Assembly: GCF_965660805.1 (NCBI RefSeq)
Contig: NZ_CBFIBE010000003.1
Span: 37,030 to 101,029 of the forward strand
DNA length: 64,000 nucleotides
Origin: Nonlabens sp.
GTDB taxonomy: Bacteria; Bacteroidota; Bacteroidia; Flavobacteriales; Flavobacteriaceae
Direction: 5' to 3'
A program made the position numbers and the translations under genes. Positions 2,024 through 63,068 of this stretch are shown here, in pieces; the stretch's first letter is position 1; the number at the start of each line of letters is the position of its first letter. A model generated the notes under the pieces. That model was given only the letters and a program-made list of their open reading frames with translations. It searched no databases and was not told the origin of the DNA.

Positions 2024-2039
2024 CGCTTTCGCGAAAGCG
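2024..2039. repeat. 16-bp palindrome copy 1, perfect, intergenic
   Basis: CGCTTTCGCGAAAGCG between divergent ppa and the VWA gene. Confidence 0.97.
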
Positions 2040-2174
2040 AATTCACAATAATCTCCATGATAAACATACTTAAACCGTTTATAAAGAACCTTAAAGCAAC
2101 TTTTATGTTTTAAAGCCATGTTAAATTGATGGTTCAAGGAAGGAATTATCATTTATCACGACTATCTTTAACCT

Positions 2175-3320
2175 ATGATGCAAGAAAGAGCTGGTTATAA
2201 ATTTGAATTCTTTAATCCTAAAGATGTTGATCCATTTGATAAGTTATTTGGGATATTTAAAGAATTAATTACGCATACATCAGGAGATTTTGACGAGGCT
2301 ATAGACTGGTTACGCGAGCTGGATAAAGAATATAAACTCACAACTCCAGAATACACTATTGATGATTTTATAAATGATTTACTAGAACGTGGTTATATTA
2401 AGCAGGAAATAGATCCTACTACTGGTGGCGATGGAACTGGTGATGAAGCAGGTTCAGGAGCTTTCTCAATTACTGCCAAAACTGAGCAACTCCTGCGGCA
2501 GCATGCCCTAGAACAAATCTTTGGTAACATGCGTAAAGGGAATAGCGGTAATCACAAAACAGGTAAATTAGGAACTGGAGATGAACATAGCGGTGATTAT
2601 AGATCTTATCGTTTTGGAGATGGGCTAGACCGTATTTCTATGACAGAGAGCTTGCGTAACGCACAGATTAATCATGGTATGGGAAACTTTAATCTTACTG
2701 AAGATGATCTGGTGGTAGAAGACACGCAGTTTAAGGCTCAAATGTCTACCGTACTAATGATTGATATCTCACACTCCATGATTCTCTATGGAGAAGATCG
2801 TATCACACCTGCTAAAAAGGTAGCTATGGCACTAGCAGAGTTGATCACGACTCGTTATCCTAAAGATACCTTAGACATTATCGTCTTCGGTAATGATTCC
2901 TGGCCCATTAAAATTGCTGATTTGCCATATTTAAAAGTAGGTCCATATCATACTAATACTGTAGCTGGTTTACAGCTTGCTATGGATATACTGCGTCGCA
3001 AGCGCAATACTAATAAGCAAATTTTTATGATTACTGACGGTAAACCTAGCTGTTTGCGATTAAAGGATGGTCGTTATTATAAAAATAGTAACGGTTTAGA
3101 CGAGTACATTGTTGATAAATGCTACACTATGGCAGCACAAGCACGCAGGTTACATATTCCCATTACTACCTTTATGATTGCAAATGACCCTTATTTACAA
3201 CGATTTGTAGATGAATTTACAGAGGCTAATCAGGGAAAAGCTTTCTTCACCGGTCTGCAAGGTCTAGGCGAAATGATTTTTACAGACTATGAAGCTAATA
3301 GAAAAAAAAGATTAAAGTGA
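2175..3320 (+). CDS. von Willebrand factor A (VWA) domain protein
   Basis: MIDAS motif DISHSM, plus T (HTNTVAGL) and ITDG elements. Confidence 0.85.
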   Translation: MMQERAGYKFEFFNPKDVDPFDKLFGIFKELITHTSGDFDEAIDWLRELDKEYKLTTPEYTIDDFINDLLERGYIKQEIDPTTGGDGTGDEAGSGAFSITAKTEQLLRQHALEQIFGNMRKGNSGNHKTGKLGTGDEHSGDYRSYRFGDGLDRISMTESLRNAQINHGMGNFNLTEDDLVVEDTQFKAQMSTVLMIDISHSMILYGEDRITPAKKVAMALAELITTRYPKDTLDIIVFGNDSWPIKIADLPYLKVGPYHTNTVAGLQLAMDILRRKRNTNKQIFMITDGKPSCLRLKDGRYYKNSNGLDEYIVDKCYTMAAQARRLHIPITTFMIANDPYLQRFVDEFTEANQGKAFFTGLQGLGEMIFTDYEANRKKRLK

Positions 3321-3400
3321 TAGTTAAAAGTATGATATTACGTTTAACGTTATATTGTTTGTTTTATTTATATACCCGACTAGGAATTTGAAATTCGGTA

Positions 3401-4060
3401 TTACTTCTTTAACTTTTTATAATATTCATCCAGCACTTTTTTTCTTCCTACAGTCTTAGTAATGATATCTTTTTCTAGATCCCAGCCACGTGCCGGACTG
3501 TATTCACGACCGTACCAGATGATTTGTAAATGTAAATCGTTCCACTTTTCTTCTGGAAACAAGCGTTTAGCATCTTTTTCTGTTTGAACTACGTTTTTAC
3601 CGGTAGTAAGGTTCCAGCGGTACATTAATCTGTGAATATGAGTGTCTACAGGAAATGCTGGAATGCCAAAAGCTTGTGACATTACCACCGCAGCCGTTTT
3701 ATGACCTACAGCAGGCATAGCCTCTAGTTCTGCATAGGTTTGTGGTACCTTTCCATCATGTAAGTCTAGAATCATTTGTGATAGACCGTGAATTCCTTTA
3801 GCTTTCATAGGTGATAGTCCTACTGGTTTAATAATTTCACGTATCTCATCTACAGACATGCGCACCATATCATAAGGGTTATCAGCACGTTTAAAGAGTA
3901 GAGGTGTGATTTGATTCACTCTTACATCAGTACTTTGAGCACTCATTAATACGGCTATTAATAAAGTGTATGGATCTTTATGATCTAGAGGTATCGGTAT
4001 TTCTGGATAGAGTTCTTCCAGTTTATTTATGATAAAATTTACTCTTTCCTCTTTATTCAT
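3401..4060 (-). CDS. nth: Endonuclease III, HhH-GPD glycosylase; no C-terminal 4Fe-4S cysteine cluster seen
   Basis: LIAVLMSAQSTD, HhH PAVGHKTA, FPVDTHIHR. Confidence 0.93.
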   Translation of the reverse strand: MNKEERVNFIINKLEELYPEIPIPLDHKDPYTLLIAVLMSAQSTDVRVNQITPLLFKRADNPYDMVRMSVDEIREIIKPVGLSPMKAKGIHGLSQMILDLHDGKVPQTYAELEAMPAVGHKTAAVVMSQAFGIPAFPVDTHIHRLMYRWNLTTGKNVVQTEKDAKRLFPEEKWNDLHLQIIWYGREYSPARGWDLEKDIITKTVGRKKVLDEYYKKLKK

Positions 4061-4089: not shown

Positions 4090-4094
4090 CAATT

Positions 4095-4544
4095 ATGACC
4101 ACATTAAAAGCAGGAGATCAAGCACCAGATTTTTCAGTAGTGAATCAAGATGGAAATGCCGTGTCTCTAGCCGATTTTAAAGGCAAAAAGTTAGTTTTAT
4201 TTTTCTATCCTAAAGCAAGTACTCCTGGCTGCACGGCCGAGGCTTGTAACCTGAGAGATAATGTAGATCGCTTTCGCGAAAGCGGATACGAGATTCTAGG
4301 TGCTAGTGCAGATAGTCCTAAAAGACAATTGAATTTTAAAAACAAGTATGAATTACCTTATGACCTGCTCGCTGATGAAGATCACAGGTTATTAAATGCT
4401 TATAAAGTTTGGGGTCCTAAGAAGTTTATGGGTAAAGAGTATGATGGTATTCATAGAACTACTTTTGTGATCGATGAAAATGGTGTTATTACTGATGTGA
4501 TTACTAAGGTAAAAACCAAAGATCATACTGCTCAAATTCTATAA
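4095..4544 (+). CDS. bcp: Thioredoxin-dependent thiol peroxidase (BCP/PrxQ)
   Basis: FFYPKASTPGCTAEAC, RTTFVIDENG. Confidence 0.95.
   Translation: MTTLKAGDQAPDFSVVNQDGNAVSLADFKGKKLVLFFYPKASTPGCTAEACNLRDNVDRFRESGYEILGASADSPKRQLNFKNKYELPYDLLADEDHRLLNAYKVWGPKKFMGKEYDGIHRTTFVIDENGVITDVITKVKTKDHTAQIL
4269..4284. repeat. 16-bp palindrome copy 2, perfect, in bcp, read as RFRES
   Basis: ...DNVD-RFRES-GYEILG... Confidence 0.97.
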
Positions 4545-7418: not shown

Positions 7419-8089
7419 TTAGAGTTTTTTTCCAGCCAGGCTTTCATATCATAAAAATTATCCCTAGCCACGCCGTGACCTATAGGATAATCTTTAAAAA
7501 CATAATCGAGTTCTAGGTTTTTTAAGATGTCTGGAGCAAGTTTAGCCCATGCATAGGGTACTACTTGATCTACGGTCCCGTGTGAAATGAAATAGGATGG
7601 TTTTGTTACGCTTTCGCGAAAGCGTGCTTCTAACTCCTCCCGATTATAAATCATTTCTTCATTTAAATAACCACTCATACACACTACTTTATCAAATAAT
7701 TGTGGATAGGATAGACTTAATCCATATGATAAGATAGCTCCTTGACTAAAGCCTAGAATATTAATTTGCTCTTGAGAAATAGAGTAACTGTTTTTAAGTT
7801 CTTCTATAAATTTGAGAAGTAATGTCATGCTCTGTTTTGCTTGATTCACATCACTGAATTTACCGCCAGTAGCGTCAAAGTTAATCGCATACCATGCTGC
7901 TCCATAAGGAGGTAAATCATATGGAGCACGTGCAGAAACGATAAAGAATTCTTGTGATAATTCTGGTGTAAAAGAGAATAAATCCTCCTCATTACTGCCA
8001 TAACCATGAAGTAATAGGAGTAATGGAGCGTTTTCTTTAAGTGCAGGTCTTATAACATGCTTAAGGGATAGATCTGAACGAGCTTTCAT
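7415..8089 (-). CDS. Phospholipase/carboxylesterase, alpha/beta hydrolase
   Basis: LLLHGYGSNE, nucleophile GFSQG, HGTVDQVVP, GHGV. Confidence 0.92.
   Translation of the reverse strand: MKARSDLSLKHVIRPALKENAPLLLLLHGYGSNEEDLFSFTPELSQEFFIVSARAPYDLPPYGAAWYAINFDATGGKFSDVNQAKQSMTLLLKFIEELKNSYSISQEQINILGFSQGAILSYGLSLSYPQLFDKVVCMSGYLNEEMIYNREELEARFRESVTKPSYFISHGTVDQVVPYAWAKLAPDILKNLELDYVFKDYPIGHGVARDNFYDMKAWLEKNSN
7609..7624. repeat. 16-bp palindrome copy 3, perfect, in the esterase, read as RFRES
   Basis: ...ELEA-RFRES-VTKPSY... Confidence 0.97.
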
Positions 8090-12876: not shown

Positions 12877-13647
12877 TTACCCTAATTCTTTAAAAGCTCC
12901 TAAACCAAATAACGCAAAATCATATTTCACTGGATCGATGGGATCTAGTTTACGCAAAATAGTGTCTAGCTCAGTAACTGTTTTTGCATCATTCTGTTTG
13001 CGCTTGATCATTTTTAACTTGCGAGCTATAGTTCCAGTATGTACGTCAAGTGGAAGAGATAAGGCGCTCATAGGAATGGTATTCCAGATTCCAAAATCTA
13101 CACCAGCCTTATCATTGCGTACCATCCATCTTAAGTACATGTTGATTCTTTTGGCACTACTGTTTTTCATAGGGTCACTGACATGCTTTTGGGTACGTGG
13201 CATGTGTTCTATCTCAAAAAAGAGTTGTTTAAACATAGAGATAGCATGTTGAAGATGAGATGTTTCTTGATACGCTTTTGCAAAAGCGTGTTCTAAACCA
13301 CCATAACGCAGTTCTATATGTTTTAAAGAACGCATAAAGGTCTTGCAATCCTCATTATTAAAGGTACGATGCACAAAACCGTCAAATCGATCCAGGTCAG
13401 ACGCTGTATGATTCCTTATAAAATCTGCAGGTGCATGTTCCATTAATTCCATAAGTTTATGGGAATTATTAATAATGGATTTACGGTTTCCCCATGCTAT
13501 AGTAGCTACTAGAAAGCCCGCGATTTCTATATCTTTTTTATTTGTAAAAAGGTGCGGAATCTGAATAGGGTCATGAGGTATAAAGTCTGGAACGTTGTAT
13601 TGTTCCACTTTTGCATCAAGAAATTCTTTGAGCTGTGCCCTAGTCAT
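12877..13647 (-). CDS. TIGR02757/DUF2400 family protein
   Basis: [37 protein letters not shown]. Confidence 0.88.
13273..13288. repeat. 16-bp palindrome copy 4, two symmetric mismatches, still a perfect palindrome, read as AFAKA
   Basis: CGCTTTTGCAAAAGCG; protein ...[11 protein letters not shown]... Confidence 0.8.
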
Positions 13648-14355: not shown

Positions 14356-16812
14356 TTAAGTCTTAAACCATTGCGGTCCTTCATTAAAGTCTATAAAATA
14401 ATTAATGCGGATTGAGAAATTGTGCCTTACTGGTTGTTCAAAAAGAGTTCCTAAACTTTCTTCAAATCTTATCGTACCTTGATTATCAAAGTTGTTCATA
14501 CTATTGCGATAGAGTAGTGTCATTTCACTGCCAGGAGCAAAACGCCAGCGATAAGAGAGATCTAGATTCCATATATTAAAATTTGCATCAGGATTAAAAT
14601 CATCTTCTAATGTGTAATCACTATCAGCTACAGTTCCGTCTCTTTGTAGTTCTTTAAAATCCTTACTAAAGGTAGCTCTAGACCAGAAATTCCTAAAACT
14701 GATGCTTAAAGCATTGCGATTATTAAAGTTATAAGTTCCAGTAACTCTGTTTTCTACACTGTGAGTATCTCTTTCACTAAGGATAGAGGTAGTGTCATTA
14801 TTAGATAGAGTTACATAACTCATTCTATCATTGCTTTTTCTCCAATTGATACTGTGGATCAACAAGAACTGATCACTAAACCTATAACGCGGACTTATGC
14901 GATAATTATAATTATGTTCCTTTTCATTAAATCTCTTATATCTTCCAGCTCTAGCGTCAATAGCAAATCTTTTACGATAGTCACTTGAGATAAAGCCACC
15001 TGTAAAAAAGCCTGCACCATATCGCACAATAGCATCTTCAATACGAGATTCAAATTGATCTTTAAATTCAGTATTATAATTAATATCTAAACCAAATGCG
15101 AAACGCTCTTTTGTTATAAAAAACGGATTAAAACTTACTTCTGTACCCGTGTGAAAAGCAGGAGTAGCAGCTCTCCTATGTCTTACATTTAACCGGAGCT
15201 CATAACGATTAAAAATTCCTTGTTGTGTTAATTGTACATAATCTAGGTCAGCGACAAAGGTGTGACGGTTAGTTCTAAAATTGCGACCTAAATCATTAGG
15301 GTTGTAACCACGATCTACAAAAAAGTGACCCAAGCGTGGTCTCCATTTACCTGCGGTAACACGCCAGTCCAGCTCTGTCGCATAACCTGTTTCAGTTCCT
15401 GTAATTGTAAAACGGTTAGACATTTTTGCCTGAGCTCTTAAGTTCTGTGTTGCCCGTTTATTATTGTGATTTAAGGCCATAGCACTAACATTTGCATCTG
15501 TGAACGCTCCATTGCGCAGGACATTTGTATTTACCAGTGCTATAGAGCTGTTATTGCCATATTGTTGATCAAGTACGAGAACATTATAATTTGTAAGAGG
15601 TTCAGTAATTAGATTTCTTTTAGTTCCTGTATTATTATCTCTTATCACGGCTTCTGTTTTCTCAGTAATAGAATTAAGAAATCCTATTCCTAGGCCACTA
15701 TTTGTACGGCCTGTAATTTTTACAGCATTTAGTAATTGAGCACTAGAAGGGTTCTCTAGAATTTCCTCGCTTTCTAGTGTATCTATATCACTAGCGCCAG
15801 TAGGCGTTTGACCTATTCTTCTAGAGAAAAAAATATTACCTTTATTAAATAGGTCTACACCTTCAGTAAAAAAGGCTCGATTCTCTGCAAACAATTGTTC
15901 AAATGGGCCTAAATTTAAAACTACCTGATCAAAAGCTACCTGACCAAAATCAGGAATCAAGGTAGCATCTAGTGTAAAGGCATCACTTAAACCATATTTA
16001 ATATCTAGTCCTGCTGCAAAGTTTGTGGAGTTGTTTCCATCAAGTCTATCATGTATGGTAGTGAGATAAGGATATAAGTTTAATCTTAATGGCGGGTTTA
16101 TATCTTCAATACCAGTAAGTAAAGCGTCATACTGCGTGTTTACACCTTTTGTAATATCTATGTAGTTATAACTATATTCTTCATTTAAGTGACGTATTCT
16201 ACGGAACACTTGAAAGGACCAGTCTTGAACCTTCTTTTCAGGAAATCTTAATGTTCTATACGGAATGCGCATTTCCACATACCATCCTTTCTGATCAAAA
16301 CTTACTTCAGAAAGAAAAACGACATTAAAGGAAAAGTCCTGACGATTTCCTTCCACAACAGCGTCTCCTAAGGAATTACCAGCAGTTGCAAAAAAACGAG
16401 TCTGATTGATCTGGTTATTATAGGTATTAATATAAAGGCCAAAAAGGTCTGCTTGTGCATCTATGTCATCTCTTTGAGAGAACTGTCTTAAGACTTTTTC
16501 GGGTTCATTGTCATATAAATATGCAGCAACGTATATTGCATTATCATCATAAGCGATTTTAAACTCTGTAGGGTGTGTTTTTCTTTCAGCCTGACCATTT
16601 ATGGGTTCAGTCATAATAAAATCACCACCGGTAGGAATTTGATCCCAGATTTTTTCAAATGGTTTTCCATCTATTTGAGGCGGCGTGGAAATACGGGTTG
16701 CCTCATAAGATTTCCTCTTAATGATAGTTGTATCTTGTTGTATTGTCGTGGTATTCGCTTTCGCGAAAGCGTAACAACATAACATTATCAGTAAAATAGC
16801 AAGACGATTCAT
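14356..16812 (-). CDS. DUF5916 family outer-membrane protein (N-terminal CBM9/DOMON-like part plus beta-barrel)
   Basis: Signal peptide, PQIDGK..W, EMRIPYRTLRF, PDFGQV, ENRAFFTEG, FFSRRIG. Confidence 0.8.
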   Translation of the reverse strand: MNRLAILLIMLCCYAFAKANTTTIQQDTTIIKRKSYEATRISTPPQIDGKPFEKIWDQIPTGGDFIMTEPINGQAERKTHPTEFKIAYDDNAIYVAAYLYDNEPEKVLRQFSQRDDIDAQADLFGLYINTYNNQINQTRFFATAGNSLGDAVVEGNRQDFSFNVVFLSEVSFDQKGWYVEMRIPYRTLRFPEKKVQDWSFQVFRRIRHLNEEYSYNYIDITKGVNTQYDALLTGIEDINPPLRLNLYPYLTTIHDRLDGNNSTNFAAGLDIKYGLSDAFTLDATLIPDFGQVAFDQVVLNLGPFEQLFAENRAFFTEGVDLFNKGNIFFSRRIGQTPTGASDIDTLESEEILENPSSAQLLNAVKITGRTNSGLGIGFLNSITEKTEAVIRDNNTGTKRNLITEPLTNYNVLVLDQQYGNNSSIALVNTNVLRNGAFTDANVSAMALNHNNKRATQNLRAQAKMSNRFTITGTETGYATELDWRVTAGKWRPRLGHFFVDRGYNPNDLGRNFRTNRHTFVADLDYVQLTQQGIFNRYELRLNVRHRRAATPAFHTGTEVSFNPFFITKERFAFGLDINYNTEFKDQFESRIEDAIVRYGAGFFTGGFISSDYRKRFAIDARAGRYKRFNEKEHNYNYRISPRYRFSDQFLLIHSINWRKSNDRMSYVTLSNNDTTSILSERDTHSVENRVTGTYNFNNRNALSISFRNFWSRATFSKDFKELQRDGTVADSDYTLEDDFNPDANFNIWNLDLSYRWRFAPGSEMTLLYRNSMNNFDNQGTIRFEESLGTLFEQPVRHNFSIRINYFIDFNEGPQWFKT
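16756..16771. repeat. 16-bp palindrome copy 5, perfect, in the signal peptide, read as AFAKA
   Basis: MNRLAILLIMLCCY-AFAKA-NTTT. Confidence 0.97.
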
Positions 16813-20454: not shown

Positions 20455-20470
20455 CGCTTTCGCGAAAGCG
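20455..20470. repeat. 16-bp palindrome copy 6, perfect, intergenic
   Basis: CGCTTTCGCGAAAGCG upstream of the DUF937 gene. Confidence 0.97.
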
Positions 20471-21763: not shown

Positions 21764-21779
21764 CGCTTTCGCGAAAGCG
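21764..21779. repeat. 16-bp palindrome copy 7, perfect, intergenic
   Basis: CGCTTTCGCGAAAGCG upstream of the sigma factor gene. Confidence 0.97.
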
Positions 21780-35094: not shown

Positions 35095-35121
35095 CTGCAC
35101 GAAACTCTTTTTTCATTGTTC

Positions 35122-35137
35122 AGCTTTCGCGAAATCG
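35122..35137. repeat. 16-bp palindrome copy 10, two mismatches, intergenic
   Basis: AGCTTTCGCGAAATCG. Confidence 0.8.
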
Positions 35138-36530: not shown

Positions 36531-36630
36531 GTAGTATAAGACTAAAAATAGATTACAATGTTACAAGTTCTAGTAAGTTTTTCCAGTTACTTTAATTTTT
36601 AATTATGAAGCATAGCCTTAATGATGTCAT

Positions 36631-36638
36631 TATATTTG
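36631..36638 (+). promoter_or_regulatory. -7 promoter box of hisS
   Basis: TATATTTG; places the start at ATG 36656. Confidence 0.7.
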
Positions 36639-36655
36639 CAGTAATAAACAAAGTT

Positions 36656-38026: not shown

Positions 38027-38262
38027 GTAGATTCTATTTATAGAGTAGCAATTTCACTGATTTCCATTTTTAATATTTTTGGACGTTCACTTCTTTTAGA
38101 AGTTTTATGAATTTGCATATTAGTGCGATACATCATTGTATATTTTTTTTAGAATTATTTTAATACGTCTAGTGAATGTTATAGTTTGACAGGTTTTTGT
38201 GCAAGCGAAATATTTAATAATCCTTAACTAAAAGCTATATTTACCTCATAGAAAGATAAAAG

Positions 38263-42896: not shown

Positions 42897-44775
42897 TCCA
42901 TGTATATTTTTGATTAGGCATTAATCTCACTAGTCCACGGTCTAGTAAATCTTTAAGAGTATTAATGACTTGTGATTGTTCCTTTTCAGGATGTAAAGAT
43001 GCAATTTCCTTAACGCTTAAGTCTGAATCCTGTAGTGCATTTTTTATTATTAAACTTAAGTTTCCTCTCTTTGTTGTTTTATTGCAATGTGTACATTTCC
43101 CGCAAGGATTAGATTCCTCTCCAAAGTATTTTAAAATCAGCACGTTAATACACTCTTCTTTTTGAGAGATAAGATCGCATATCAACTTGAGCTTCTCTTT
43201 TTTTACTTGATTTTGTTGTTTTAATGTTTTAGCAAAACGGTTGATTGTTCGATCATCATCACGCGGTTCGAGAAAAGTAATTTGAGTATCAGCATTAACG
43301 ATCTGTGCGTCTATAAGTTCCTTTTCTTCAAGGAATTTAAGAGTCTCCAGTACTTCGTTTTCTGTGGTATTACTGCGCAAAGCGATGATAGAACTATTAA
43401 TCTCTAAGTTTTGGTATGTACTACTGCCATAGGTGCGCAGTATAGATTGTATGATGGAGTTCATAGCAGGACGATTGTGTATGAACTCGAGAATTTTTTT
43501 TCCGCTTTCGCGAAAGCGTATACTTGATTTCCTGTGGTAATTTTGCGATAAGCTTATGATACTAAATCGGTCTAGCGTGAGTAGCACATTATAACAAAGA
43601 ACACCATTAATAGAGTAGGTGCTGGCAAAACTGGCAAAACTCAACTGATGGCTTGTGTTTTCTCCTTCACCCATTGCTATGCGTAAATAATTATTCAATT
43701 TACGGTACACATATTTAACTTGCTCAGTAGTGGCAAGAGATTTAATAAACTGATTTTGAGCATGTATAATATCGTTTATGTTATAGAAAAACTGAGCAAT
43801 ACTTTCTTTACCATCTCTACCAGCACGGCCTGTTTCTTGATAATAACTCTCTATACTGTCGGGCAGTTGTAAATGAGTAACTGTGCGCACATCAGGTTTA
43901 TCTATTCCCATACCAAATGCGTTTGTAGCTACCATCACCTGAGTATCATTTTCCATCCATGATTGAGCGGCTTTTACTTTAGTCTTGTGAGGTAAGCCTC
44001 CATGGTAAAAGTTAGAGGAAATACCATTTACCGTTAGTAACCTTGAATAGTTAACAGCATTCTTACGACTTCTTACATACGTGATTGAACTGCCTGTATG
44101 TTTTTTATAGAACTCTGTATAACTGCTGTTTTTATCTTCTGTATCTGTGATGTAATAGCTTATATTAGGTCTCAAATAACTGTTTTTAAAAACTTGATGA
44201 TTTACCAGCTCCAGATTTTCTATCATATCTTTTTGAACATCAAGTGTTGCAGTAGCAGTAACTGCAATTATAGGTGTAGCTTTATGAATTTTGCGTAGTA
44301 CTTTAATATCTCTGTATGCCGGTCTGAAATCATGTCCCCACTGGCTCACACAGTGTGCCTCATCTACAGCTATTAAGGACACCTTCATTCTAGCGATACG
44401 TTCTTGAACAAGACTTTGTTGTAGTCGTTCTGGACTTAGGTATAAGAATTGATACTGACCATAAATACAATTATCCAGTATATCATCGAGTTCTTGATAA
44501 GTGATACCACCAGTGATGCCTGTTGCTTTTATTCCTTTAGATTTTAAAGTGTTTACTTGATCTTTTATAAGCGCAACTAGTGGAGAAACAACAACGCAAA
44601 TTCCTTCTCGTACTAAACCTGGAATTTGATAACACAAGGATTTACCACCACCTGTAGGTAATAGAGCAAGAACATCATTACCTTCTATAACAGCATCTAT
44701 AATGGCTTCTTGCTGCGGTCTAAACGCGTTATAGCCAAAGGTGTTTTGTAATATATGTTTTGCTCCTGGATTCAA
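42889..44775 (-). CDS. recQ: RecQ family ATP-dependent DNA helicase
   Basis: PTGGGKSLCYQ, DEAHCVSQWGHDFRP, ATNAFGMGIDK, YYQETGRAGRDG, C-terminal Zn-binding cysteines. Confidence 0.92.
   Translation of the reverse strand: MNPGAKHILQNTFGYNAFRPQQEAIIDAVIEGNDVLALLPTGGGKSLCYQIPGLVREGICVVVSPLVALIKDQVNTLKSKGIKATGITGGITYQELDDILDNCIYGQYQFLYLSPERLQQSLVQERIARMKVSLIAVDEAHCVSQWGHDFRPAYRDIKVLRKIHKATPIIAVTATATLDVQKDMIENLELVNHQVFKNSYLRPNISYYITDTEDKNSSYTEFYKKHTGSSITYVRSRKNAVNYSRLLTVNGISSNFYHGGLPHKTKVKAAQSWMENDTQVMVATNAFGMGIDKPDVRTVTHLQLPDSIESYYQETGRAGRDGKESIAQFFYNINDIIHAQNQFIKSLATTEQVKYVYRKLNNYLRIAMGEGENTSHQLSFASFASTYSINGVLCYNVLLTLDRFSIISLSQNYHRKSSIRFRESGKKILEFIHNRPAMNSIIQSILRTYGSSTYQNLEINSSIIALRSNTTENEVLETLKFLEEKELIDAQIVNADTQITFLEPRDDDRTINRFAKTLKQQNQVKKEKLKLICDLISQKEECINVLILKYFGEESNPCGKCTHCNKTTKRGNLSLIIKNALQDSDLSVKEIASLHPEKEQSQVINTLKDLLDRGLVRLMPNQKYTWNE
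43503..43518. repeat. 16-bp palindrome copy 12, perfect, in recQ, read as RFRES
   Basis: ...RKSSI-RFRES-GKKIL... Confidence 0.97.
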
Positions 44776-48033: not shown

Positions 48034-48054
48034 ATTTGTTGGTCTGTTAAAACT

Positions 48055-48097
48055 GGTTTAATTACGCTTTCGCATAAGCATAATTAAACCTTTTTTT
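48055..48097 (+). terminator. murA terminator hairpin containing a degenerate palindrome copy
   Basis: GGTTTAATTACGCTT-tcgcat-AAGCATAATTAAACC followed by T7. Confidence 0.7.
48065..48080. repeat. 16-bp palindrome copy 13, three mismatches, intergenic
   Basis: CGCTTTCGCATAAGCA. Confidence 0.6.
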
Positions 48098-49617: not shown

Positions 49618-50589
49618 GTGAAAATCACAAACTATATGGAAGTACAAGAATTAATTATTGCACGCTTTCGCGAAAGCGTTTCTCACACGAACTCCTTCAT
49701 CCAGTACTTTGCAGATGTTCTAGATCTGAGTTACGATGCCGCTTATCGTAGGATTCAAGGAAAAGCTAAACTAGAAATACATGAAGCCATGAAGCTTGCT
49801 AGATTAGGTGAGTTTTCTCTAGATCATATTATGACTGCGCATCAAGACCTAACGGCGCTAGGTACTGCCACTAAGAAGATTCATTCTATGGAATCACTTG
49901 AGTTCTATTTTAAGGAAATGGAAAATAACCTTAAAGCTGCTGGCAAGAAAGGAGTAGAGTGGATTTATAGCGCTAAGGATATTCCTGTTTTTCATCATTT
50001 TAATGATACGCATTTAGCTCGTTTTAAGATTTATGTCTGGATGCAATTACTGGATGATTCTATGGAAGGAAAACGTTTTTCAGATTTTCACTTGCCGCTG
50101 TCCATGAAAGAACAAATTAAAAAGAATAAGGCACTTTTTGAACAGTATAATAGGGTGGAGATCTGGAATGATACGACTATCTCTAGTAGTTTACAGCAAA
50201 TTCATTTTTATCATGAGGCTGGTTATATAGATCAAGATATGGCTGTTATTTTATGTGAGGATTTAAGGAGTCTTCTTAAAAAAACCGCTGCAGATTTGCT
50301 TACAACCTCATATAATATTTATTACCACGAGCTCTTATTAATGAGTAATAACGCTATCGTTAAAAAAAATGGAAAGGCTATTGCTGGTTTTGTAACCATG
50401 ACTTTGCTAGGTTATATAAGATTTAGTGGTAGTAATATTTTAAACCGAATGGATGATTTTTTCAAGTATCAAATAAGGCAAGCCACATCTATAAAAGATT
50501 GCTCTTTAAAAGAACGCTCCATATTTTTTAATAAAATGGAACAAAAAATTAACGCTCTAGAAAAATCTCTAGAGCGTTTTAGTCTGTAA
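49618..50589 (+). CDS. Hypothetical protein with an N-terminal HTH-like domain
   Basis: FADVLDLSYDAAYRRIQGK resembles an XRE/BetR-type HTH. Start may be ATG 49636. Confidence 0.7.
   Translation: MKITNYMEVQELIIARFRESVSHTNSFIQYFADVLDLSYDAAYRRIQGKAKLEIHEAMKLARLGEFSLDHIMTAHQDLTALGTATKKIHSMESLEFYFKEMENNLKAAGKKGVEWIYSAKDIPVFHHFNDTHLARFKIYVWMQLLDDSMEGKRFSDFHLPLSMKEQIKKNKALFEQYNRVEIWNDTTISSSLQQIHFYHEAGYIDQDMAVILCEDLRSLLKKTAADLLTTSYNIYYHELLLMSNNAIVKKNGKAIAGFVTMTLLGYIRFSGSNILNRMDDFFKYQIRQATSIKDCSLKERSIFFNKMEQKINALEKSLERFSL
49663..49678. repeat. 16-bp palindrome copy 14, perfect, read as RFRES
   Basis: ...LIIA-RFRES-VSHT... Confidence 0.97.
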
Positions 50590-52128: not shown

Positions 52129-52144
52129 AGCTTTCGCGAAAGCG
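52129..52144. repeat. 16-bp palindrome copy 15, one mismatch, intergenic
   Basis: AGCTTTCGCGAAAGCG, 8 nt upstream of the aroB ATG. Confidence 0.92.
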
Positions 52145-57103: not shown

Positions 57104-58339
57104 TTGTTCCTTTTGAATCTACAGAACAAACATAAAATATTAAACGATCCCATTTATGGTTTTATTACCATTCCTAATGAGGACTTATTTACAATTATAG
57201 AACATCCATACTTTCAGAGGTTGCGGCGTGTTACACAAATGGGCTTGAGTTATCTAGTATATCCTGGAGCACATCATACCAGATTTCACCACGCACTAGG
57301 TTGTTTGCATTTAATGCAAAAAGCAGTACAAGTACTTCGTTCTAAGAATGTTGACATCTCTTATGAAGAAGAAGATGCTCTTTATAAAGCTATTCTATTA
57401 CATGATATAGGTCATGGACCTTTTTCTCATGCTATGGAGCATAGTATCATTAATAATGTAAGTCACGAGGATATTTCTATCCTTTTTATGGAATCTTTGA
57501 ATAAGGAGTTTAACGGTAGTTTAACGCTTGCAATTCAAATTTTCAAAGGAGCATATCACCGACCTTTTATGATGCAATTGATCTCAAGCCAGCTGGATAT
57601 GGATCGATTAGATTACTTGAAACGAGATAGTTTTTATACAGGTGTTGCAGAAGGGAACATTAATAGCCAGCGATTAATCGCTATGCTTAATGTTAAAAAT
57701 GATGAACTCGTTATCGAGGAAAAAGGGATTTACTCTGTAGAGCATTTTCTAAGCAGCCGCAGGCTCATGTATTGGCAAGTCTATTTGCACAAAACAGGTA
57801 TAGGTGCTGAGCATTTACTACAATCTGTTTTTGTACGCATTAAGGAGCTTATAGGTAAAGGGATAGAAGTGGATTTACCATCAGACTTAAAATATTTTTT
57901 AACACATGGTATTACTTTAGCTCATTTTACTCAAGAAAACTTAAACAGATTTGCTAGGTTAGATGACACTGACTTAATCACCACGCTTAAATTAGGATCA
58001 CAGCATGAGGACTTTGTGTTACAGGAACTATGTAATATGATTTTAAATAGGCAATTACTTAAAATCAAATTTTCAAAAGAGCCTATCAGTGATAAAAAAC
58101 TTCAGAAAAAAAAGCATCAATTAATAAAAGCGAGGAGTTTATCTGATCATGAAGCGCAATATTTTGTGTTCTCTGGAGCTGTTCATAATCTCGCTTACGC
58201 GAAAGCGAAACCTATAAAAATATTATTAAAAAATGGTAAACTTGTAGAACTCATAAAGGCTGGCGAGGAAGCAAGTTTTAAGGCACTGACCAAAAAGGTG
58301 ACAAAATATTACTATTGCTATCCAAAGATTCAGGATTAA
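57104..58339 (+). CDS. HD-domain phosphohydrolase, dNTP triphosphohydrolase-like
   Basis: DPIYG, FQRLRR, YPGAHHTRFHH, LLHDIGHGPFSH, D.DRLDYL.RD, MYWQVY.HK. Start is TTG 57104 or 57113. Confidence 0.9.
   Translation: MFLLNLQNKHKILNDPIYGFITIPNEDLFTIIEHPYFQRLRRVTQMGLSYLVYPGAHHTRFHHALGCLHLMQKAVQVLRSKNVDISYEEEDALYKAILLHDIGHGPFSHAMEHSIINNVSHEDISILFMESLNKEFNGSLTLAIQIFKGAYHRPFMMQLISSQLDMDRLDYLKRDSFYTGVAEGNINSQRLIAMLNVKNDELVIEEKGIYSVEHFLSSRRLMYWQVYLHKTGIGAEHLLQSVFVRIKELIGKGIEVDLPSDLKYFLTHGITLAHFTQENLNRFARLDDTDLITTLKLGSQHEDFVLQELCNMILNRQLLKIKFSKEPISDKKLQKKKHQLIKARSLSDHEAQYFVFSGAVHNLAYAKAKPIKILLKNGKLVELIKAGEEASFKALTKKVTKYYYCYPKIQD
57127..57134 (-). promoter_or_regulatory. Candidate -7 box of porX inside the HD coding sequence
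   Basis: TATGTTTG on the minus strand. Confidence 0.5.
58192..58207. repeat. 16-bp palindrome copy 16, one mismatch, in the HD gene, read as AYAKA
   Basis: CGCTTACGCGAAAGCG; ...HNL-AYAKA-KPI... Confidence 0.9.
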
Positions 58340-58349
58340 CTAAAATTAC

Positions 58350-58357
58350 TATTTTTG
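58350..58357 (+). promoter_or_regulatory. -7 promoter box of the lpx operon
   Basis: TATTTTTG 5 nt before ATG 58363. Confidence 0.65.
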
Positions 58358-58362
58358 CGAGA

Positions 58363-60783: not shown

Positions 60784-61568
60784 TGAATCAACCACTAGCA
60801 TACGTACATCCAGGAGCAAAAATCGCTAAGAATGTCGTTATAGAACCGTTTACAACCATCCATAATGATGTAATCATAGGTGAAGGAACCTGGATAGGTT
60901 CTAATGTCACGATTATGGAAGGTGCACGCATAGGGAAGAACGTGAGTATCTTTCCCGGTGCAGTAATAAGTGCAATTCCACAAGATAAAAAATTTGAAGA
61001 TGAGGATACAACTACCGTAATAGGTGATAACACAACTATTAGGGAATGTGTAACTATTAATAGAGGTACCTCTGATCGCATGAAAACTGTTATAGGTAAG
61101 AACTGTTGGATCATGGCTTACTGCCATATCGCACATGACTGTATAGTAGGTGATAATTGTATTTTTTCAAATAACAGCACACTTGCAGGTCACATTACAG
61201 TAGGTGATCATGTAGTACTAGCAGGAATGGCTGCGGTACAACAGTTTTGTCAAATAGGTAGTCACTCCTTTGTAACAGGAGGATCACTGGTTAGAAAAGA
61301 TGTTCCACCTTTTGTAAAAGCAGGACGTGAACCGTTAAGCTATGTAGGGATCAATTCTGTAGGATTAAGAAGAAGAGGTTTTGAATTAGAGAAAATAAGA
61401 GAAATTCAAGATATTTACAGAATACTTTATCAAAAAAATTATAACGTATCTCAAGCCGTTCAAATTATTGAAGCAGAAATGAGTGCGACTAATGAAAGGG
61501 ATGAAATTATAGAATTTATAAAAAACTCAAAACGAGGTATCATGAGAGGATACGTCGGTAGTAACTAA
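60783..61568 (+). CDS. lpxA: Acyl-ACP--UDP-N-acetylglucosamine O-acyltransferase
   Basis: Hexapeptide repeats, PQD.KF, IRECVTINRGT, HIAHDC, GINSVGLRRRG. Confidence 0.97.
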   Translation: MNQPLAYVHPGAKIAKNVVIEPFTTIHNDVIIGEGTWIGSNVTIMEGARIGKNVSIFPGAVISAIPQDKKFEDEDTTTVIGDNTTIRECVTINRGTSDRMKTVIGKNCWIMAYCHIAHDCIVGDNCIFSNNSTLAGHITVGDHVVLAGMAAVQQFCQIGSHSFVTGGSLVRKDVPPFVKAGREPLSYVGINSVGLRRRGFELEKIREIQDIYRILYQKNYNVSQAVQIIEAEMSATNERDEIIEFIKNSKRGIMRGYVGSN

Positions 61569-61574
61569 AATATT

Positions 61575-62141
61575 ATGGCAAGTACAAGCGACATTAGAAA
61601 AGGATTGTGTATAAGATACAATCATGACATTTATAAAATTGTTGAATTCTTACACGTTAAACCTGGTAAAGGTCCAGCATTTGTAAGAACTAAACTAAAA
61701 AGTGTCACAAACGGTAAGGTGATAGATAATACCTTCTCTGCAGGACATAAGATCGAGGATATACGTGTAGAAACACAATCATTCCAGTTCCTTTATCAAG
61801 ATCCAGAAGGTTATCATTTTATGAATACAGAGACCTACGAGCAAATCCTTTTGCAAGAAACTGTTCTTGATGCTCCAGGACTTTTAAAAGAAGGTGAAAT
61901 TGTTAAAATACAGATCAATACTGAGGACGACTCACCATTATCTGTAGACATGCCACAATATGTAGTACTAGAAGTTACTGCCACAGAGCCAGGACTTAAA
62001 GGAAATACAGCTACTAACGCGACTAAACCTGCAACTGTAGAAACAGGCGCACAGGTTAATGTGCCTTTATTTATTAATGAAGGCGATAAAATACGAATCG
62101 ATACAGAAAAAGGTGCTTATCACGAGCGCATGAAAGAGTAA
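61575..62141 (+). CDS. efp: Elongation factor P
   Basis: HVKPGKGPAFVRTKLK, PG.KGNTA, KPATVETG, VPLFI. Confidence 0.98.
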   Translation: MASTSDIRKGLCIRYNHDIYKIVEFLHVKPGKGPAFVRTKLKSVTNGKVIDNTFSAGHKIEDIRVETQSFQFLYQDPEGYHFMNTETYEQILLQETVLDAPGLLKEGEIVKIQINTEDDSPLSVDMPQYVVLEVTATEPGLKGNTATNATKPATVETGAQVNVPLFINEGDKIRIDTEKGAYHERMKE

Positions 62142-63068
62142 ATGAAATTCTCTCAAACACATCGTTTAAAAGATATTGCTGCGCTCATTAATTGTGAGTA
62201 TGTAGGCGATGATCTGTTTCCAGTGACCGGTATGAATGAAATCCATGTGGTAACACCTGGAGATATAGTGTTTGTAGATCATCCTAAGTATTATGATAAA
62301 GCATTACATAGTGATGCTACCGTTGTACTTATTAATAAAAAAGTAGAAGCACCGGCAGGGAAAGCACTACTCATATCAGATGATCCTTTTAGGGACTTTA
62401 ATAAATTAACCCAGCATTTTGCTCCTTTTCACGCTTTCGCGGAAGCGAATACAACACCACCACAAGTAGGTGAAGGAACCGTTGTGCAACCTAATGTATT
62501 TTTAGGGAATGATGTTGTGGTAGGATCAAATTGTGTGATCCATAGTAATGTGTCCATTAATGATAGGTGCATTTTAGGTGATAACGTCATTATACATTCT
62601 GGAACCGTTCTAGGAGCCGATGCTTTTTATTACAAACGTAGACCTGAAGGTTACGATAAGTTATTAAGTAATGGTCGCGTTGTTATTGAAGATCATGTAG
62701 AGATAGGTAGTTTATGTACCATAGATCGTGGCGTGAGTGGTGATACAACTATAGGTCATGGAAGTAAACTCGATAATCAAGTCCATATAGGACATGATAC
62801 CACTTTAGGAAAACATGTTCTTATTGCTAGTCAAACAGGAATTTCTGGCTGTGTCGTTATAGAAGACGAAGTGAAAATATGGGGACAGGTAGGAATACGT
62901 AGTGATGTACGACTAGGTAAAGGATGTGAAATTATGGCACAAAGTGGTGTCTCAAAAGATGTAAAACCAGGAGATGTACTCTTCGGTTCACCGGCTTCAA
63001 ATGCTAAAGAAAAGTTTAGAGAGCTTGCAGCTATAAGAATGTTACCTAACTTTATAAAAAATAAATAA
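62142..63068 (+). CDS. Second LpxD-family acyltransferase (paralogue)
   Basis: LpxD-like N-terminus, hexapeptide repeats, LGADAF, IDRG, LDNQVHIGHD. Confidence 0.85.
   Translation: MKFSQTHRLKDIAALINCEYVGDDLFPVTGMNEIHVVTPGDIVFVDHPKYYDKALHSDATVVLINKKVEAPAGKALLISDDPFRDFNKLTQHFAPFHAFAEANTTPPQVGEGTVVQPNVFLGNDVVVGSNCVIHSNVSINDRCILGDNVIIHSGTVLGADAFYYKRRPEGYDKLLSNGRVVIEDHVEIGSLCTIDRGVSGDTTIGHGSKLDNQVHIGHDTTLGKHVLIASQTGISGCVVIEDEVKIWGQVGIRSDVRLGKGCEIMAQSGVSKDVKPGDVLFGSPASNAKEKFRELAAIRMLPNFIKNK
62432..62447. repeat. 16-bp palindrome copy 17, one mismatch, in the LpxD paralogue, read as AFAEA
   Basis: CGCTTTCGCGGAAGCG; ...APFH-AFAEA-NTT... Confidence 0.9.

What the first reader, a model, noticed from the sequence alone, without database searches (positions are those of the whole stretch)
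2024..62447. Palindrome spacing is more regular than random, and degenerate copies fill the gaps
Hand-computed gaps for all 17 copies run from 1309 to 6556 bp, with mean about 3.8 kb and coefficient of variation about 0.43. For the 11 perfect copies alone the CV is about 0.54, and random placement predicts about 1. Imperfect copies sit in three of the longest perfect-copy gaps (13273 in the 9.1-kb gap, 35122 in the 7.2-kb gap, 48065 in the 6.2-kb gap) and three more lie in the 14-kb tail with no perfect copy. Inference: selection for one site per few kb, as expected for uptake-fragment tagging or chromosome looping. Caveats: the sample is small and degenerate copies were chosen after the fact.
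Basis: partly seen in the sequence, partly recalled or inferred. Interest (0 to 1): 0.7.

Follow-up and report, generated by a model that had tools for sequence, protein, structure and literature searches.

The report
Evenly spaced genome-wide palindrome tag
A 14-16 base palindrome (core GCTTTCGCGAAAGC) is written about once every 4-5 kb through genes and spacers of the marine bacteria Nonlabens and Dokdonia, is conserved where surrounding DNA has diverged, and avoids other copies within about 2 kb, so it looks like an apparently undescribed counterpart of DNA-uptake sequences or cyanobacterial HIP1.

Summary
The window (a Nonlabens chromosome, nearest named relative N. ulvanivorans) holds 11 exact and 6 degenerate copies of CGCTTTCGCGAAAGCG at the stated coordinates. 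Gap CV is 0.51 for the 11 copies and 0.42 for all 17 (P=0.025 and 0.0003 against random placement). The regularity generalises. In 106 independent 8-kb blocks from many Dokdonia and Nonlabens assemblies, and in a pre-declared replicate on metagenome contigs, gaps under 1 kb are almost absent. The gap distribution is gamma-like (shape 2.3-3.7, CV 0.5-0.65), not exponential. An exclusion zone of about 1.6-2 kb explains the window's regularity; I found no lattice beyond it. Copies arise by substitution, not insertion. They are kept exactly at orthologous positions where flanks are only 64-80% identical, and one survives inside a decayed pseudogene. Where a copy has decayed, another copy usually lies 0.3-1.6 kb away. 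Half-sites never occur alone, and flanks carry a mirrored composition signature without covariation, which points to a dimeric duplex-binding reader. The function is inferred, not shown: most likely a self-DNA segment tag of the uptake-sequence/HIP1 type, with chromosome-organising binding sites as the main rival. No paper searched mentions the motif.

The parts
2024..2039 (.). Exact copy. Intergenic, between divergent genes: inorganic pyrophosphatase (1443-1982, -) and ORF 2175-3320 (+).
4269..4284 (.). Exact copy inside the thiol peroxidase gene bcp (4095-4544, +), read as RFRES. The protein aligns to the family profile end to end.
7609..7624 (.). Exact copy inside an esterase-like gene (7415-8089, -), read as RFRES.
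13273..13288 (.). Degenerate copy CGCTTTTGCAAAAGCG with two mirror-image changes (C7T and G10A), so it is still a perfect palindrome. It lies inside a TIGR02757-family gene (12877-13647, -), AFAKA frame. In Dokdonia locus L067 this position is decayed and an exact copy lies 409 bp away.
16756..16771 (.). Exact copy 41 nt inside the longest ORF of a DUF5916 gene (14356-16812, -). It may lie upstream of the true start codon.
20455..20470 (.). Exact copy. Intergenic, between a DUF937 gene (19734-20372, -) and a sigma-70 gene (20716-21579, -).
21764..21779 (.). Exact copy. Intergenic, 185 bp upstream of the sigma-70 gene (20716-21579, -).
28320..28335 (.). Exact copy inside ORF 28088-29383 (+) of a polysaccharide cluster, read as LSRKR. 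Kept exactly in N. ulvanivorans (L121:1590); the flanking alignment is 77-80% identical.
30579..30594 (.). Exact copy inside a Polysacc_synt flippase gene (29374-30825, +), read as AFAKA. Kept exactly in L121:3849.
35122..35137 (.). Degenerate copy AGCTTTCGCGAAATCG (2 mismatches) inside the decayed remnant of the ogt/MGMT gene (about 34796-35288, many stop codons). The orthologous copy in the intact ogt of relatives has an intact 14-mer core (L121:8352, L123:8353; exact in L245:5117).
37817..37832 (.). Exact copy inside hisS (36605-38026, +), read as RFRES. RFRES is present in 59 of the 67 Nonlabens-clade HisS homologues listed; outgroup genera have xLRxN with no indel.
38192..38207 (.). Relic or proto-copy GGTTTTTGTGCAAGCG (11 of 16) in the hisS-lacI spacer. 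It lies at the position where locus L245, whose hisS copy has decayed, carries an exact copy.
43503..43518 (.). Exact copy inside recQ (42889-44775, -), read as RFRES. Kept exactly in L123:16688, where the flanking alignment is only 66-69% identical.
48065..48080 (.). Degenerate copy (3 mismatches) after aroA (46723-48033, +). It sits at the centre of a longer hairpin followed by a T run, which looks like a terminator.
49663..49678 (.). Exact copy 45 nt inside ORF 49618-50589 (+, GTG start). It is possibly upstream of the true start, in a divergent spacer.
52129..52144 (.). Copy with one mismatch at position 1, so the 14-mer core is intact. Intergenic, between divergent aroB (51053-52120, -) and proline dehydrogenase (52200-53372, +).
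58192..58207 (.). Copy with one mismatch (T6A) inside an HD-domain gene (57104-58339, +), read as AYAKA.
62432..62447 (.). Copy with one mismatch (A11G) inside an lpxD paralogue (62142-63068, +), read as AFAEA. Twenty-three Nonlabens homologues read AFAKA (the exact palindrome); outgroups have unrelated residues.

Best explanation
Shown. The element is a clade-specific, hyper-abundant duplex palindrome. Its core is GCTTTCGCGAAAGC, usually flanked by C and G to make the 16-mer. About 30 bp on each side carry a mirrored composition signature: the 5' flank is C-poor and T-rich, and the 3' flank is G-poor and A-rich. It occurs about once per 4-5 kb in Nonlabens, Dokdonia and related uncultured Flavobacteriaceae. 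Copies are made by point substitution in all three reading frames and in spacers, not by insertion. Once made, they are held unchanged at orthologous positions while neighbouring DNA diverges. The holding force acts per neighbourhood, not per copy. Two copies are almost never both kept within about 1.5-2 kb, and where one copy decays another usually lies nearby. This exclusion produces the regular spacing.

Inferred. Half-sites never occur alone and the two flanks do not covary. It is probably not an RNA or DNA hairpin, a short methylase site, or a monomer scanning single-stranded DNA.

Inferred, with the least certainty. The motif serves as a tag of self DNA whose benefit or drive is counted per DNA segment of a few kb. 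The most likely setting is uptake or recombination of DNA from relatives, as with Pasteurellaceae USS, Neisseria DUS and, as recently proposed, cyanobacterial HIP1. Under that reading a fragment needs one tag, a second tag on the same fragment adds nothing, and even spacing follows.
For: Abundance and range. There are 11 exact copies in 64 kb against 0 expected. Of 119 genome blocks returned for the 16-mer, 106 were kept as Dokdonia, Nonlabens or allied Flavobacteriaceae.

Spacing. In genome blocks with the exact 14-mer, 1 event fell in 145 kb of exposure below 1 kb, against 44 in 166 kb beyond 2 kb (P=2e-11). The gamma shape is 3.7, and the likelihood-ratio test against an exponential gives P=2e-12. 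In the pre-declared metagenome replicate the counts were 4 in 98 kb against 25 in 128 kb (P=7e-4).

Substitution, not insertion. HisS reads RFRES in 59 of the 67 Nonlabens-clade homologues listed, where other genera read xLRxN, with no indel. LpxD reads AFAKA or AFAEA where outgroups have unrelated residues. Bcp aligns end to end to its family profile.

Maintenance. Exact 16-mers are shared across pairs whose flanking alignments are 64-80% identical. One copy is kept at 14 of 16 inside a decayed ogt pseudogene.

Neighbourhood rule. The hisS copy has decayed in L121 and L246, which carry an exact copy 1504 and 1559 bp away, and in L245, which carries one 320 bp away. It is intact in the window and in L123, where no copy lies within 2.7 kb. 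The window has an 11-of-16 relic at the alternative position. L091 and L106 show reciprocal strong and weak copies.

Whole palindrome as the unit. GCGAAAGCG is counted 386 times, never outside a full site. TTCGCGAA is counted 224 times, never outside one. CGCG and TCGCGA are near expectation elsewhere. Mismatches concentrate at positions 1 and 16. The flanks are biased on both sides but do not covary. The single-strand hairpin is weak, at -5 to -7 kcal/mol.

Resident DNA only. A prophage-like region (L178) has three core sites 3.1-3.6 kb apart. The isolated Nonlabens phage P12024S (35.7 kb) has none at <=3 mismatches.

Literature. USS are relatively evenly distributed, and this is described as an expected consequence of uptake-driven molecular drive (PMC7811141; PMC1939737). 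HIP1 is conserved and quasi-periodic and is now proposed as an uptake signal (PMC5861425; bioRxiv 10.64898/2026.06.24.733823).
Against: Nothing here shows that Nonlabens or Dokdonia take up DNA at all, let alone with sequence bias. No receptor or binding protein was identified. Known uptake sequences are asymmetric 9-12-mers at about one per kb. This motif is a strict palindrome at one per 4-5 kb, which is closer in form to operator-like sites of intracellular dimeric proteins. Spacing, conservation and absence from a lytic phage are all equally expected for a chromosome-organising site. The turnover evidence rests on two to four independent events. The mirrored, strand-specific flank composition is not explained by the uptake idea. 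The whole-genome distribution (ori/ter, islands) could not be examined because only blocks of 8-20 kb were available.
Confidence: 0.42

Rival explanations
1. The copies are binding or loading sites for an intracellular dimeric DNA-binding protein that organises or maintains the chromosome. Candidates are a ParB/Noc/SlmA-like protein or a nucleoid-associated protein that spreads, slides or bridges over a couple of kb from each site. Sites inside one another's range would be redundant, so one per neighbourhood is kept.
For: The element is a strict 14-16 bp palindrome that is never found as a half-site. The flanks are biased independently on each side, with T-rich and A-rich tracts typical of bent protein-bound DNA. 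The exclusion zone of 1.5-2 kb is followed by a flat hazard. The motif is present in a resident prophage and absent from a lytic phage. HIP1 periodicity has been interpreted in the same way (PMC5861425). One copy lies inside parB in L123, as one Bacillus parS does (my own knowledge).
Against: From my own knowledge, known site sets of this type (parS, NBS, SBS, matS, ram) number from a few to about 100 per genome, are not scattered through coding regions at hundreds of copies, and are regionally biased. The match to parS is only 6 of 16 by my own position-by-position comparison, with a different half-site spacing. No candidate protein was identified.
Confidence: 0.3
2. The copies are Chi-like control sites for a helicase-nuclease or another self/non-self discriminator. 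Degradation of broken or linear DNA would stop at the next site, so selection would limit the distance between sites.
For: The density of one per 4-5 kb resembles that of Chi in E. coli (my own knowledge). The flank composition is strand-specific and mirrored, so each strand looks alike when approached from its own 3' side. A lytic phage of the host genus lacks the motif.
Against: From my own knowledge, known Chi sites are asymmetric 5-8-mers read on one strand. Here isolated half-sites are absent, so a monomeric single-strand reader is unlikely. Fourteen to sixteen specified bases is far more than any known Chi.
Confidence: 0.08
3. The motif is a functionless by-product of biased repair linked to DNA methylation, as in Elhai's model for HIP1. 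A methyltransferase site plus very-short-patch repair would convert near-matches into matches.
For: It is a GC-rich palindrome with a CGCG/TCGCGA centre. One-base deviations concentrate at the outermost positions, as reported for HIP1 (PMC4390886).
Against: The inner sub-palindromes are not enriched on their own: TTCGCGAA occurs 0 times outside full sites, and CGCG and TCGCGA are at 0.78 and 0.93 of expectation. A 14-bp specificity is beyond any methylase or Vsr-type site. A local repair bias does not predict a 1.5-2 kb exclusion zone or neighbour-dependent decay.
Confidence: 0.05
4. The copies are a mobile or structural repeat: a miniature transposable element, a REP element moved by a RAYT transposase, or a transcription terminator hairpin.
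For: The motif is palindromic, and 43% of copies lie outside long ORFs against 20% of random positions. One degenerate copy (48065) sits in a terminator-like hairpin.
Against: Host proteins show no insertion relative to outgroups. Fifty-seven percent of copies lie inside long ORFs, in all three frames. There are no clusters, no conserved flanks and no flank covariation. The T-rich tract lies 5' of the palindrome, not 3'. The hairpin is weak. Rfam finds nothing at the sites.
Confidence: 0.02

Closest known systems
DNA uptake signal sequences (USS of Pasteurellaceae, DUS of Neisseriaceae)
   Same: Both are short exact motifs over-represented by orders of magnitude. Both are shared by related genera, placed in coding regions by substitution in tolerant frames, and enriched in spacers. 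Both are conserved at orthologous positions, and USS also have AT-rich flanks. Both are more evenly spaced than random, which the USS literature describes as an expected result of fragment-level molecular drive (PMC7811141, PMC1939737).
   Different: Known uptake sequences are asymmetric 9-12-mers at about one per kb in Proteobacteria with demonstrated biased uptake. This motif is a strict 14-16 bp palindrome that never occurs as a half-site, at about one per 4-5 kb, in Bacteroidota, where no sequence-biased uptake is known. Uptake was not tested.
HIP1 (GCGATCGC) of cyanobacteria
   Same: Both are GC-rich palindromes, hyper-abundant inside and between genes. Both are conserved beyond codon constraint. 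In both, single-base variants are biased to the outer positions and the distribution is non-random. Function was long unknown for HIP1, which is now proposed to act in chromosome structure or transformation (PMC5861425, PMC4390886, bioRxiv 10.64898/2026.06.24.733823).
   Different: HIP1 is an 8-mer, in some genomes more than one per gene, with cognate methyltransferases for its inner sub-sites and a reported periodicity of 10-90 kb. Here the unit is a 14-mer whose sub-palindromes are not enriched alone. Density is far lower. The spacing feature is a 1.5-2 kb exclusion zone.
16-bp palindromic sites of the ParB/Noc family (parS, NBS), and SlmA or MatP sites
   Same: These are also two-fold symmetric duplex sites of 13-16 bp read by dimers, with proteins that spread or slide for kilobases. 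That behaviour would make close sites redundant.
   Different: From my own knowledge, those sets number from a few to about 100 sites and are regionally confined, and they are not written through hundreds of coding sequences. Sequence similarity to parS is 6 of 16 by my own comparison, with a different half-site spacing. No cognate protein was identified here.
Chi sites
   Same: Density is similar (one per 4-5 kb), both are over-represented in the chromosome, and both are absent from a lytic phage.
   Different: Chi is an asymmetric 5-8-mer read on one strand, with an orientation bias. Here only the complete palindrome exists.

Membership tests
DNA uptake sequences (USS/DUS) | Strong genomic over-representation of one exact short motif shared by related species. 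| tested here: met
   11 exact copies against 0 expected in the window. Of 119 genome blocks returned, 106 were kept as Dokdonia, Nonlabens or allied Flavobacteriaceae.
DNA uptake sequences (USS/DUS) | The host is naturally competent and takes up DNA carrying the motif preferentially. | not testable with these tools
   This needs uptake or transformation assays. The literature search found competence reported only in Riemerella and Elizabethkingia among relatives, with nothing for Nonlabens or Dokdonia.
DNA uptake sequences (USS/DUS) | Copies lie in coding regions by substitution, are conserved at orthologous positions, and are spaced more evenly than random. | tested here: met
   substitution and conservation; spacing.
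DNA uptake sequences (USS/DUS) | An asymmetric motif that is functional as a single copy in one orientation. | tested here: not met
   The motif is a perfect palindrome, and half-sites are absent outside full sites.
HIP1-type highly iterated palindromes | A GC-rich palindrome that is hyper-abundant in and between genes and conserved beyond coding constraint. | tested here: met
   One copy is also retained in a pseudogene.
HIP1-type highly iterated palindromes | The sequence GCGATCGC, with cognate methyltransferases that recognise inner sub-sites. | tested here: not met
   The sequence is different. The inner sub-palindromes CGCG, TCGCGA and TTCGCGAA are not enriched on their own. Methylation itself could not be tested.
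REP elements / RAYT-mobilised repeats | Extragenic imperfect palindromes, often clustered, with a conserved flanking tetranucleotide. | tested here: not met
   57% of copies lie inside long ORFs in all three frames. Copies are isolated rather than clustered. The flanks carry a composition bias only.
Miniature transposable elements | Presence or absence as an insertion, with terminal repeats or target duplication. | tested here: not met
   There is no indel relative to outgroup HisS and LpxD. The pentapeptide replaces existing residues.
Intrinsic terminators | A stable GC-rich hairpin followed by a T run, located at gene ends. | tested here: not met
   The hairpin is only -5 to -7 kcal/mol. The T-rich tract lies on the 5' side. 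Most copies are intragenic. Only copy 48065 fits this description.
parS / NBS (ParB-Noc family sites) | A 16-bp palindrome bound by a ParB-family dimer, with few copies and a regional distribution. | tested here: inconclusive
   The form matches: a 16-bp palindrome that acts only as a whole site. Copy number (about one per 4-5 kb) and sequence (6 of 16 to parS, by my own comparison from memory) do not match. Binding and whole-genome distribution could not be tested.
Chi sites | An asymmetric 5-8-mer that acts in one orientation and is co-oriented with replication. | tested here: not met
   The motif is palindromic, and half-sites are absent as independent units.

The most novel reading that the evidence does not exclude
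The roughly 700 copies per genome (extrapolated from density) would form a chromosome-wide array of loading or anchoring sites for an unknown dimeric DNA-binding protein of marine Flavobacteriaceae. An example would be a sliding clamp or bridging protein with a reach of about 2 kb. The whole chromosome, including resident prophages, would then be covered from evenly spaced entry points. That organisation has no described counterpart at this site density. If the tag is instead read outside the cell, it would be the first sequence-specific DNA uptake signal in Bacteroidota and the first palindromic one.
Probability: 0.2. Interest if true: 0.85.

Novelty: new variant of a known kind. Interest (0 to 1): 0.72.

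Why it matters
Hyper-abundant exact motifs are rare. The best understood (USS, DUS, Chi) each revealed a core mechanism of DNA exchange or repair, and HIP1 has resisted explanation for thirty years. This motif is long enough that chance copies are negligible, so every copy carries information. It occurs in culturable, widely studied marine bacteria such as Dokdonia and Nonlabens. It also shows a clean, measurable rule: one copy per neighbourhood of about 2 kb, with neighbour-dependent decay. That makes several questions directly testable. Do such tags spread by molecular drive or by selection? Do Bacteroidota have sequence-biased DNA uptake? Or does a so far unknown chromosome-coating protein exist? 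In practice the motif could serve as a marker for binning this clade and for spotting recently acquired DNA, and it might improve genetic tools if it promotes transformation.

Tried and rejected
1. RNA or structural element. Rfam at gathering thresholds finds only two tRNAs in the window. The hairpin is weak. The flanks do not covary.

2. Second fixed motif in the flanks. K-mer and positional scans show only an A/C-rich, G-poor zone with no positioned motif.

3. Restriction or methylase site. The sub-palindromes are at expectation outside the motif.

4. One site per gene or per operon. Intergenic copies occur in divergent, tandem and convergent contexts, coding copies occur anywhere within genes, and there are 17 sites among the 67 ORFs of at least 100 aa.

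5. Lattice or periodicity beyond exclusion. The window CV is reproduced by a hard-core model with a 1.6-2 kb zone.

6. Finding the window's own genome. Its proteins occur only on short metagenome contigs, and its DNA only in marine plankton metagenome runs kept as contigs. No read-level or RNA data could therefore be used.

7. LpxD orthologues among the fetched loci. None were found, so a protein search was used instead.

8. Literature. Full-text searches for the 16-mer, for TTTCGCGAAA, and for Nonlabens or Dokdonia together with 'palindrom' returned nothing relevant.

9. Viral collection scan. Most 14-mer hits are single hits, many on high-GC contigs, and I treated them as chance matches from unrelated viruses. 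Only a few low-GC contigs carry several full sites.

Full report
**What is there.** The palindrome is CGCTTTCGCGAAAGCG. Dinucleotide-preserving shuffles give 0, 0.01 and 0.07 matches. The set of 17 is therefore what a fixed threshold of <=3 mismatches returns, not a post-hoc selection. The window is ordinary core chromosome. It carries genes for pyrophosphatase, Bcp, a sigma-70 factor, FolE, ribosomal proteins, HisS, RecQ, Fmt, AroA, AroB and LpxD/LpxC. Its proteins are closest to Nonlabens ulvanivorans: HisS 87% and LpxD 92% identical. Its DNA was found only in marine plankton metagenome runs.

**Is the spacing more regular than chance?** The gaps and CVs are as stated: CV 0.51 for the 11 exact copies and 0.42 for all 17. 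Uniform placement in a 64-kb window gives mean CV 0.87-0.92. P(CV <= observed) is 0.025 for 11 copies, 0.0055 for 14, 0.0002 for 16 and 0.0003 for 17. P(minimum gap >= 1309) is 0.001. Holding the exact copies fixed, six random extra copies reach CV <= 0.42 with P=0.0012.

- **First independent sample.** A scan of one genome per species for the 16-mer returned 119 fixed 8-kb blocks. I kept 106 as Dokdonia, Nonlabens or allied uncultured Flavobacteriaceae. Blocks were chosen for holding a copy, so I measured only forward gaps from the first exact copy and treated the block end as censoring. Mixing genomes of different density can only flatten an increasing hazard, which makes the test conservative.
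- **Result.** The hazard of meeting the next copy is 0.01-0.04 per kb below 1 kb and rises to about 0.3 per kb beyond 2 kb. For the exact 14-mer core, 1 event fell in 145 kb of exposure below 1 kb, against 44 in 166 kb beyond 2 kb (P=2e-11). The censored gamma fit has shape 3.7, mean 4.8 kb and CV 0.52, and rejects the exponential at P=2e-12.
- **Second sample, with the test fixed in advance.** I fixed the threshold (exact 14-mer) and the comparison (<1 kb against >=2 kb) before scanning metagenome contigs. The counts were 4 in 98 kb against 25 in 128 kb (P=7e-4), with gamma shape 2.3 and P=6e-5 against the exponential.
- **Limit.** A simple exclusion zone of 1.6-2 kb reproduces the window's CV (P=0.16-0.5), and the hazard is flat beyond 2 kb. 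The regularity is therefore short-range avoidance at high packing, not a lattice.

**Anatomy.**
- Among 74 degenerate copies, 62 of 114 mismatches fall at positions 1 and 16. Positions 4, 5 and 8 and their mirror positions almost never vary. The core is the 14-mer GCTTTCGCGAAAGC.
- The flanks carry a mirrored composition signature out to about 30 bp. The 5' flank has 1-10% C against 18% genome-wide and is T-rich. The 3' flank has 2-9% G and is A/C-rich. The base two positions outside the 16-mer is T on the 5' side and A on the 3' side in about 75% of copies.
- The bias holds in both coding and non-coding copies.
- Left and right flanks of the same copy do not covary beyond the first two bases, and there is no second positioned motif.
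- As single-stranded DNA the hairpin is worth only -5 to -7 kcal/mol.
- Half-sites never stand alone. GCGAAAGCG is counted 386 times in 887 kb and never outside a full site. TTCGCGAA is counted 224 times, never outside one. CGCG and TCGCGA outside the motif are at 0.78 and 0.93 of expectation.
- I infer that the complete duplex palindrome with two independently read half-sites is the unit. That is the signature of a homodimeric DNA-binding protein rather than an RNA or DNA hairpin, a short methylase site, or a monomer scanning one strand.

**How copies arise and persist.**
- In the window, 9-11 copies lie in ORFs, in all three frames (RFRES, LSRKR, AFAKA), and 6-8 lie in spacers of every gene arrangement.
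- Over 205 copies, 57% lie in long ORFs against 80% of random positions. Frame counts are AFAKA 65, RFRES 27 and LSRKR 25.
- In HisS the pentapeptide RFRES is present in 59 of the 67 Nonlabens-clade homologues among the 120 listed, while the residues just upstream vary freely. Olleya, Winogradskyella, Oceanihabitans and Cellulophaga have xLRxN at the same place, with no indel.
- In LpxD, 23 Nonlabens homologues read AFAKA and 8, including the window, read AFAEA. Other genera have unrelated residues.
- Copies are therefore made by substitution, and the window's degenerate LpxD copy is a mutated descendant of an exact one.
- At the DNA level, exact 16-mers are shared between genomes whose flanking alignments are 64-80% identical.
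- In the window the ogt gene has decayed to stop-ridden fragments, yet its copy is kept at 14 of 16. The force therefore acts on the DNA motif itself, not on the protein.

**Why the spacing is even: neighbouring copies exclude each other.**
- The hisS copy is intact in the window and in Nonlabens MAG-97 (L123). In both, no other copy lies within 2.7 kb upstream or 5.5 kb downstream.
- It has decayed by 5 mismatches in N. ulvanivorans (L121) and by 3 in L246. In both, a rearrangement places an exact copy 1504 or 1559 bp downstream.
- It has decayed by 3 mismatches in L245, where an exact copy lies 320 bp away in the hisS-lacI spacer.
- At that spacer position the window has an 11-of-16 relic. 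Only five matches with 4-5 mismatches exist in the whole window.
- L091 and L106 show reciprocal strong and weak copies 1.8-1.9 kb apart. The window's weak copy at 13273 corresponds to a decayed position in Dokdonia L067, which has an exact copy 409 bp away.
- These are few events, two to four of them independent, but all point the same way. A copy is maintained only while it is the sole copy in its neighbourhood.
- Instability of close repeats is a weaker alternative. By my own rough estimate, deletion between 16-bp repeats is too rare to overcome a force strong enough to hold copies across genera.

**Other DNA in the same hosts.** A prophage-like region in IMG/VR (L178) encodes a head maturation protease related to those of Cellulophaga and Flavobacterium phages, and an endolysin. 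It carries three core sites 3.6 and 3.1 kb apart, one of them inside the protease gene. The isolated Nonlabens phage P12024S (35.7 kb) has none even at three mismatches, where host density would predict about 7-9. The motif thus accumulates in DNA that resides in the chromosome over evolutionary time, not in any DNA that merely replicates in these cells.

**What it most likely does.** Three known kinds of system have a one-per-segment logic.
- **Uptake or transfer tag.** The closest match in genomic behaviour is the uptake-sequence class. The shared features are huge over-representation, placement in genes by substitution, orthologous conservation, AT-rich flanks and even spacing. The USS literature attributes the even spacing to uptake-biased molecular drive (PMC7811141; PMC1939737). 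HIP1, the one known hyper-abundant palindrome, is conserved and quasi-periodic and is now proposed as an uptake signal. I rank this reading first, at about 0.4. Uptake is untested, and the strict dimer-type palindrome and the lower density are atypical.
- **Intracellular binding sites.** An array of sites for a spreading or bridging chromosome protein fits the palindrome and the exclusion zone equally well. It would be unprecedented in copy number. I put it at about 0.3.
- **Other readings.** Chi-like control is disfavoured by the absence of half-sites. Methylation-linked biased repair is disfavoured by the lack of sub-site enrichment and of any distance dependence. Mobile-element and terminator readings are rejected: there is no indel, copies are intragenic, and the T tract is on the wrong side.
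- **Unexplained.** The mirrored, strand-specific flank composition is not accounted for by any of these readings.

**Novelty.** Full-text searches for the motif, for its core, and for the genus names together with 'palindrom' found no description of it. Subscription-only literature was not searched. I class it as a new variant of a known kind: a USS/HIP1-like genomic tag that is palindromic, 14-16 bp long, found in Bacteroidota, and governed by a measurable exclusion rule.

Noticed in passing
window 34796-35288: The ogt (O6-methylguanine-DNA methyltransferase) gene is intact in N. ulvanivorans and other relatives. In this genome it is a decayed pseudogene: 14 stop codons in one reading frame across the region, and only scattered tblastn similarity split over three frames.
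   Followed up: yes
flanks of all copies (window and loci L001-L124), about 30 bp on each side: There is a mirrored strand-specific composition. The 5' flank is C-poor and T/G-rich; the 3' flank is G-poor and A/C-rich. It is present in coding and non-coding copies, and the two sides do not covary. No explanation was found. Possibilities are protein contacts or DNA bending, insulation of a hairpin from competing pairings, or a local strand-specific mutation bias.
   Followed up: partly
L178 (IMGVR_UViG_2617271332_000001) 4210, 7851, 10955: A prophage-like region with a head maturation protease and an endolysin carries three core sites at host-like spacing, one of them inside the protease gene. 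Several other low-GC IMG/VR contigs (L147, L161, L203, L215, L240) also carry 2-3 full sites.
   Followed up: partly
L368 (Nonlabens phage P12024S, JQ823122.1): This isolated phage of a Nonlabens host has no copy of the palindrome even at three mismatches. It encodes its own DNA methyltransferase (32699-33376).
   Followed up: partly
L123:2677-2692: An exact copy lies inside the parB gene (2505-3407, -) of Nonlabens MAG-97, next to parA. From my own memory, Bacillus subtilis has a parS site inside spo0J. This may be coincidence.
   Followed up: no
window 38027-38262 versus L121:11423-12762: Synteny breaks directly after hisS. The window and L123 continue with a LacI-type regulator, whereas N. 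ulvanivorans (L121, L246) has peptidyl-prolyl isomerase genes. Upstream of the response-regulator gene, L123 has parAB where the window and L121 have polysaccharide biosynthesis genes.
   Followed up: partly
window 13273-13288: This degenerate copy carries two mirror-image substitutions (C7T and G10A), so it remains a perfect palindrome. This may hint that symmetry itself matters, or it may be chance.
   Followed up: no
window 48050-48095: The 3-mismatch copy is the centre of a stem of about 14 bp (-9.3 kcal/mol as DNA) followed by TTTTT, just after aroA. It is the only copy that looks like an intrinsic terminator.
   Followed up: partly
window 58315-59382 and 62142-63068: Two lpxD paralogues flank a fused lpxC-fabZ gene (59383-60783). 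Only the second paralogue carries a palindrome copy.
   Followed up: no
window 55532-57082: This gene encodes a response-regulator receiver domain fused to a PglZ domain.
   Followed up: no
L087:7815 and 7882; L098:5295 and 5383: These are rare very close pairs of copies, 67 and 88 bp apart, and are exceptions to the exclusion rule. In L087 both members carry the same two-mismatch variant, which suggests a local duplication.
   Followed up: no
L045, L069, L095, L102, L055, L093, L118: Single or double exact 16-mers also occur in blocks labelled Aquimarina, Leeuwenhoekiella, Flavobacterium phragmitis and Saprospiraceae. I did not determine whether these are chance hits, mislabelled bins or a wider range of the motif.
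   Followed up: no
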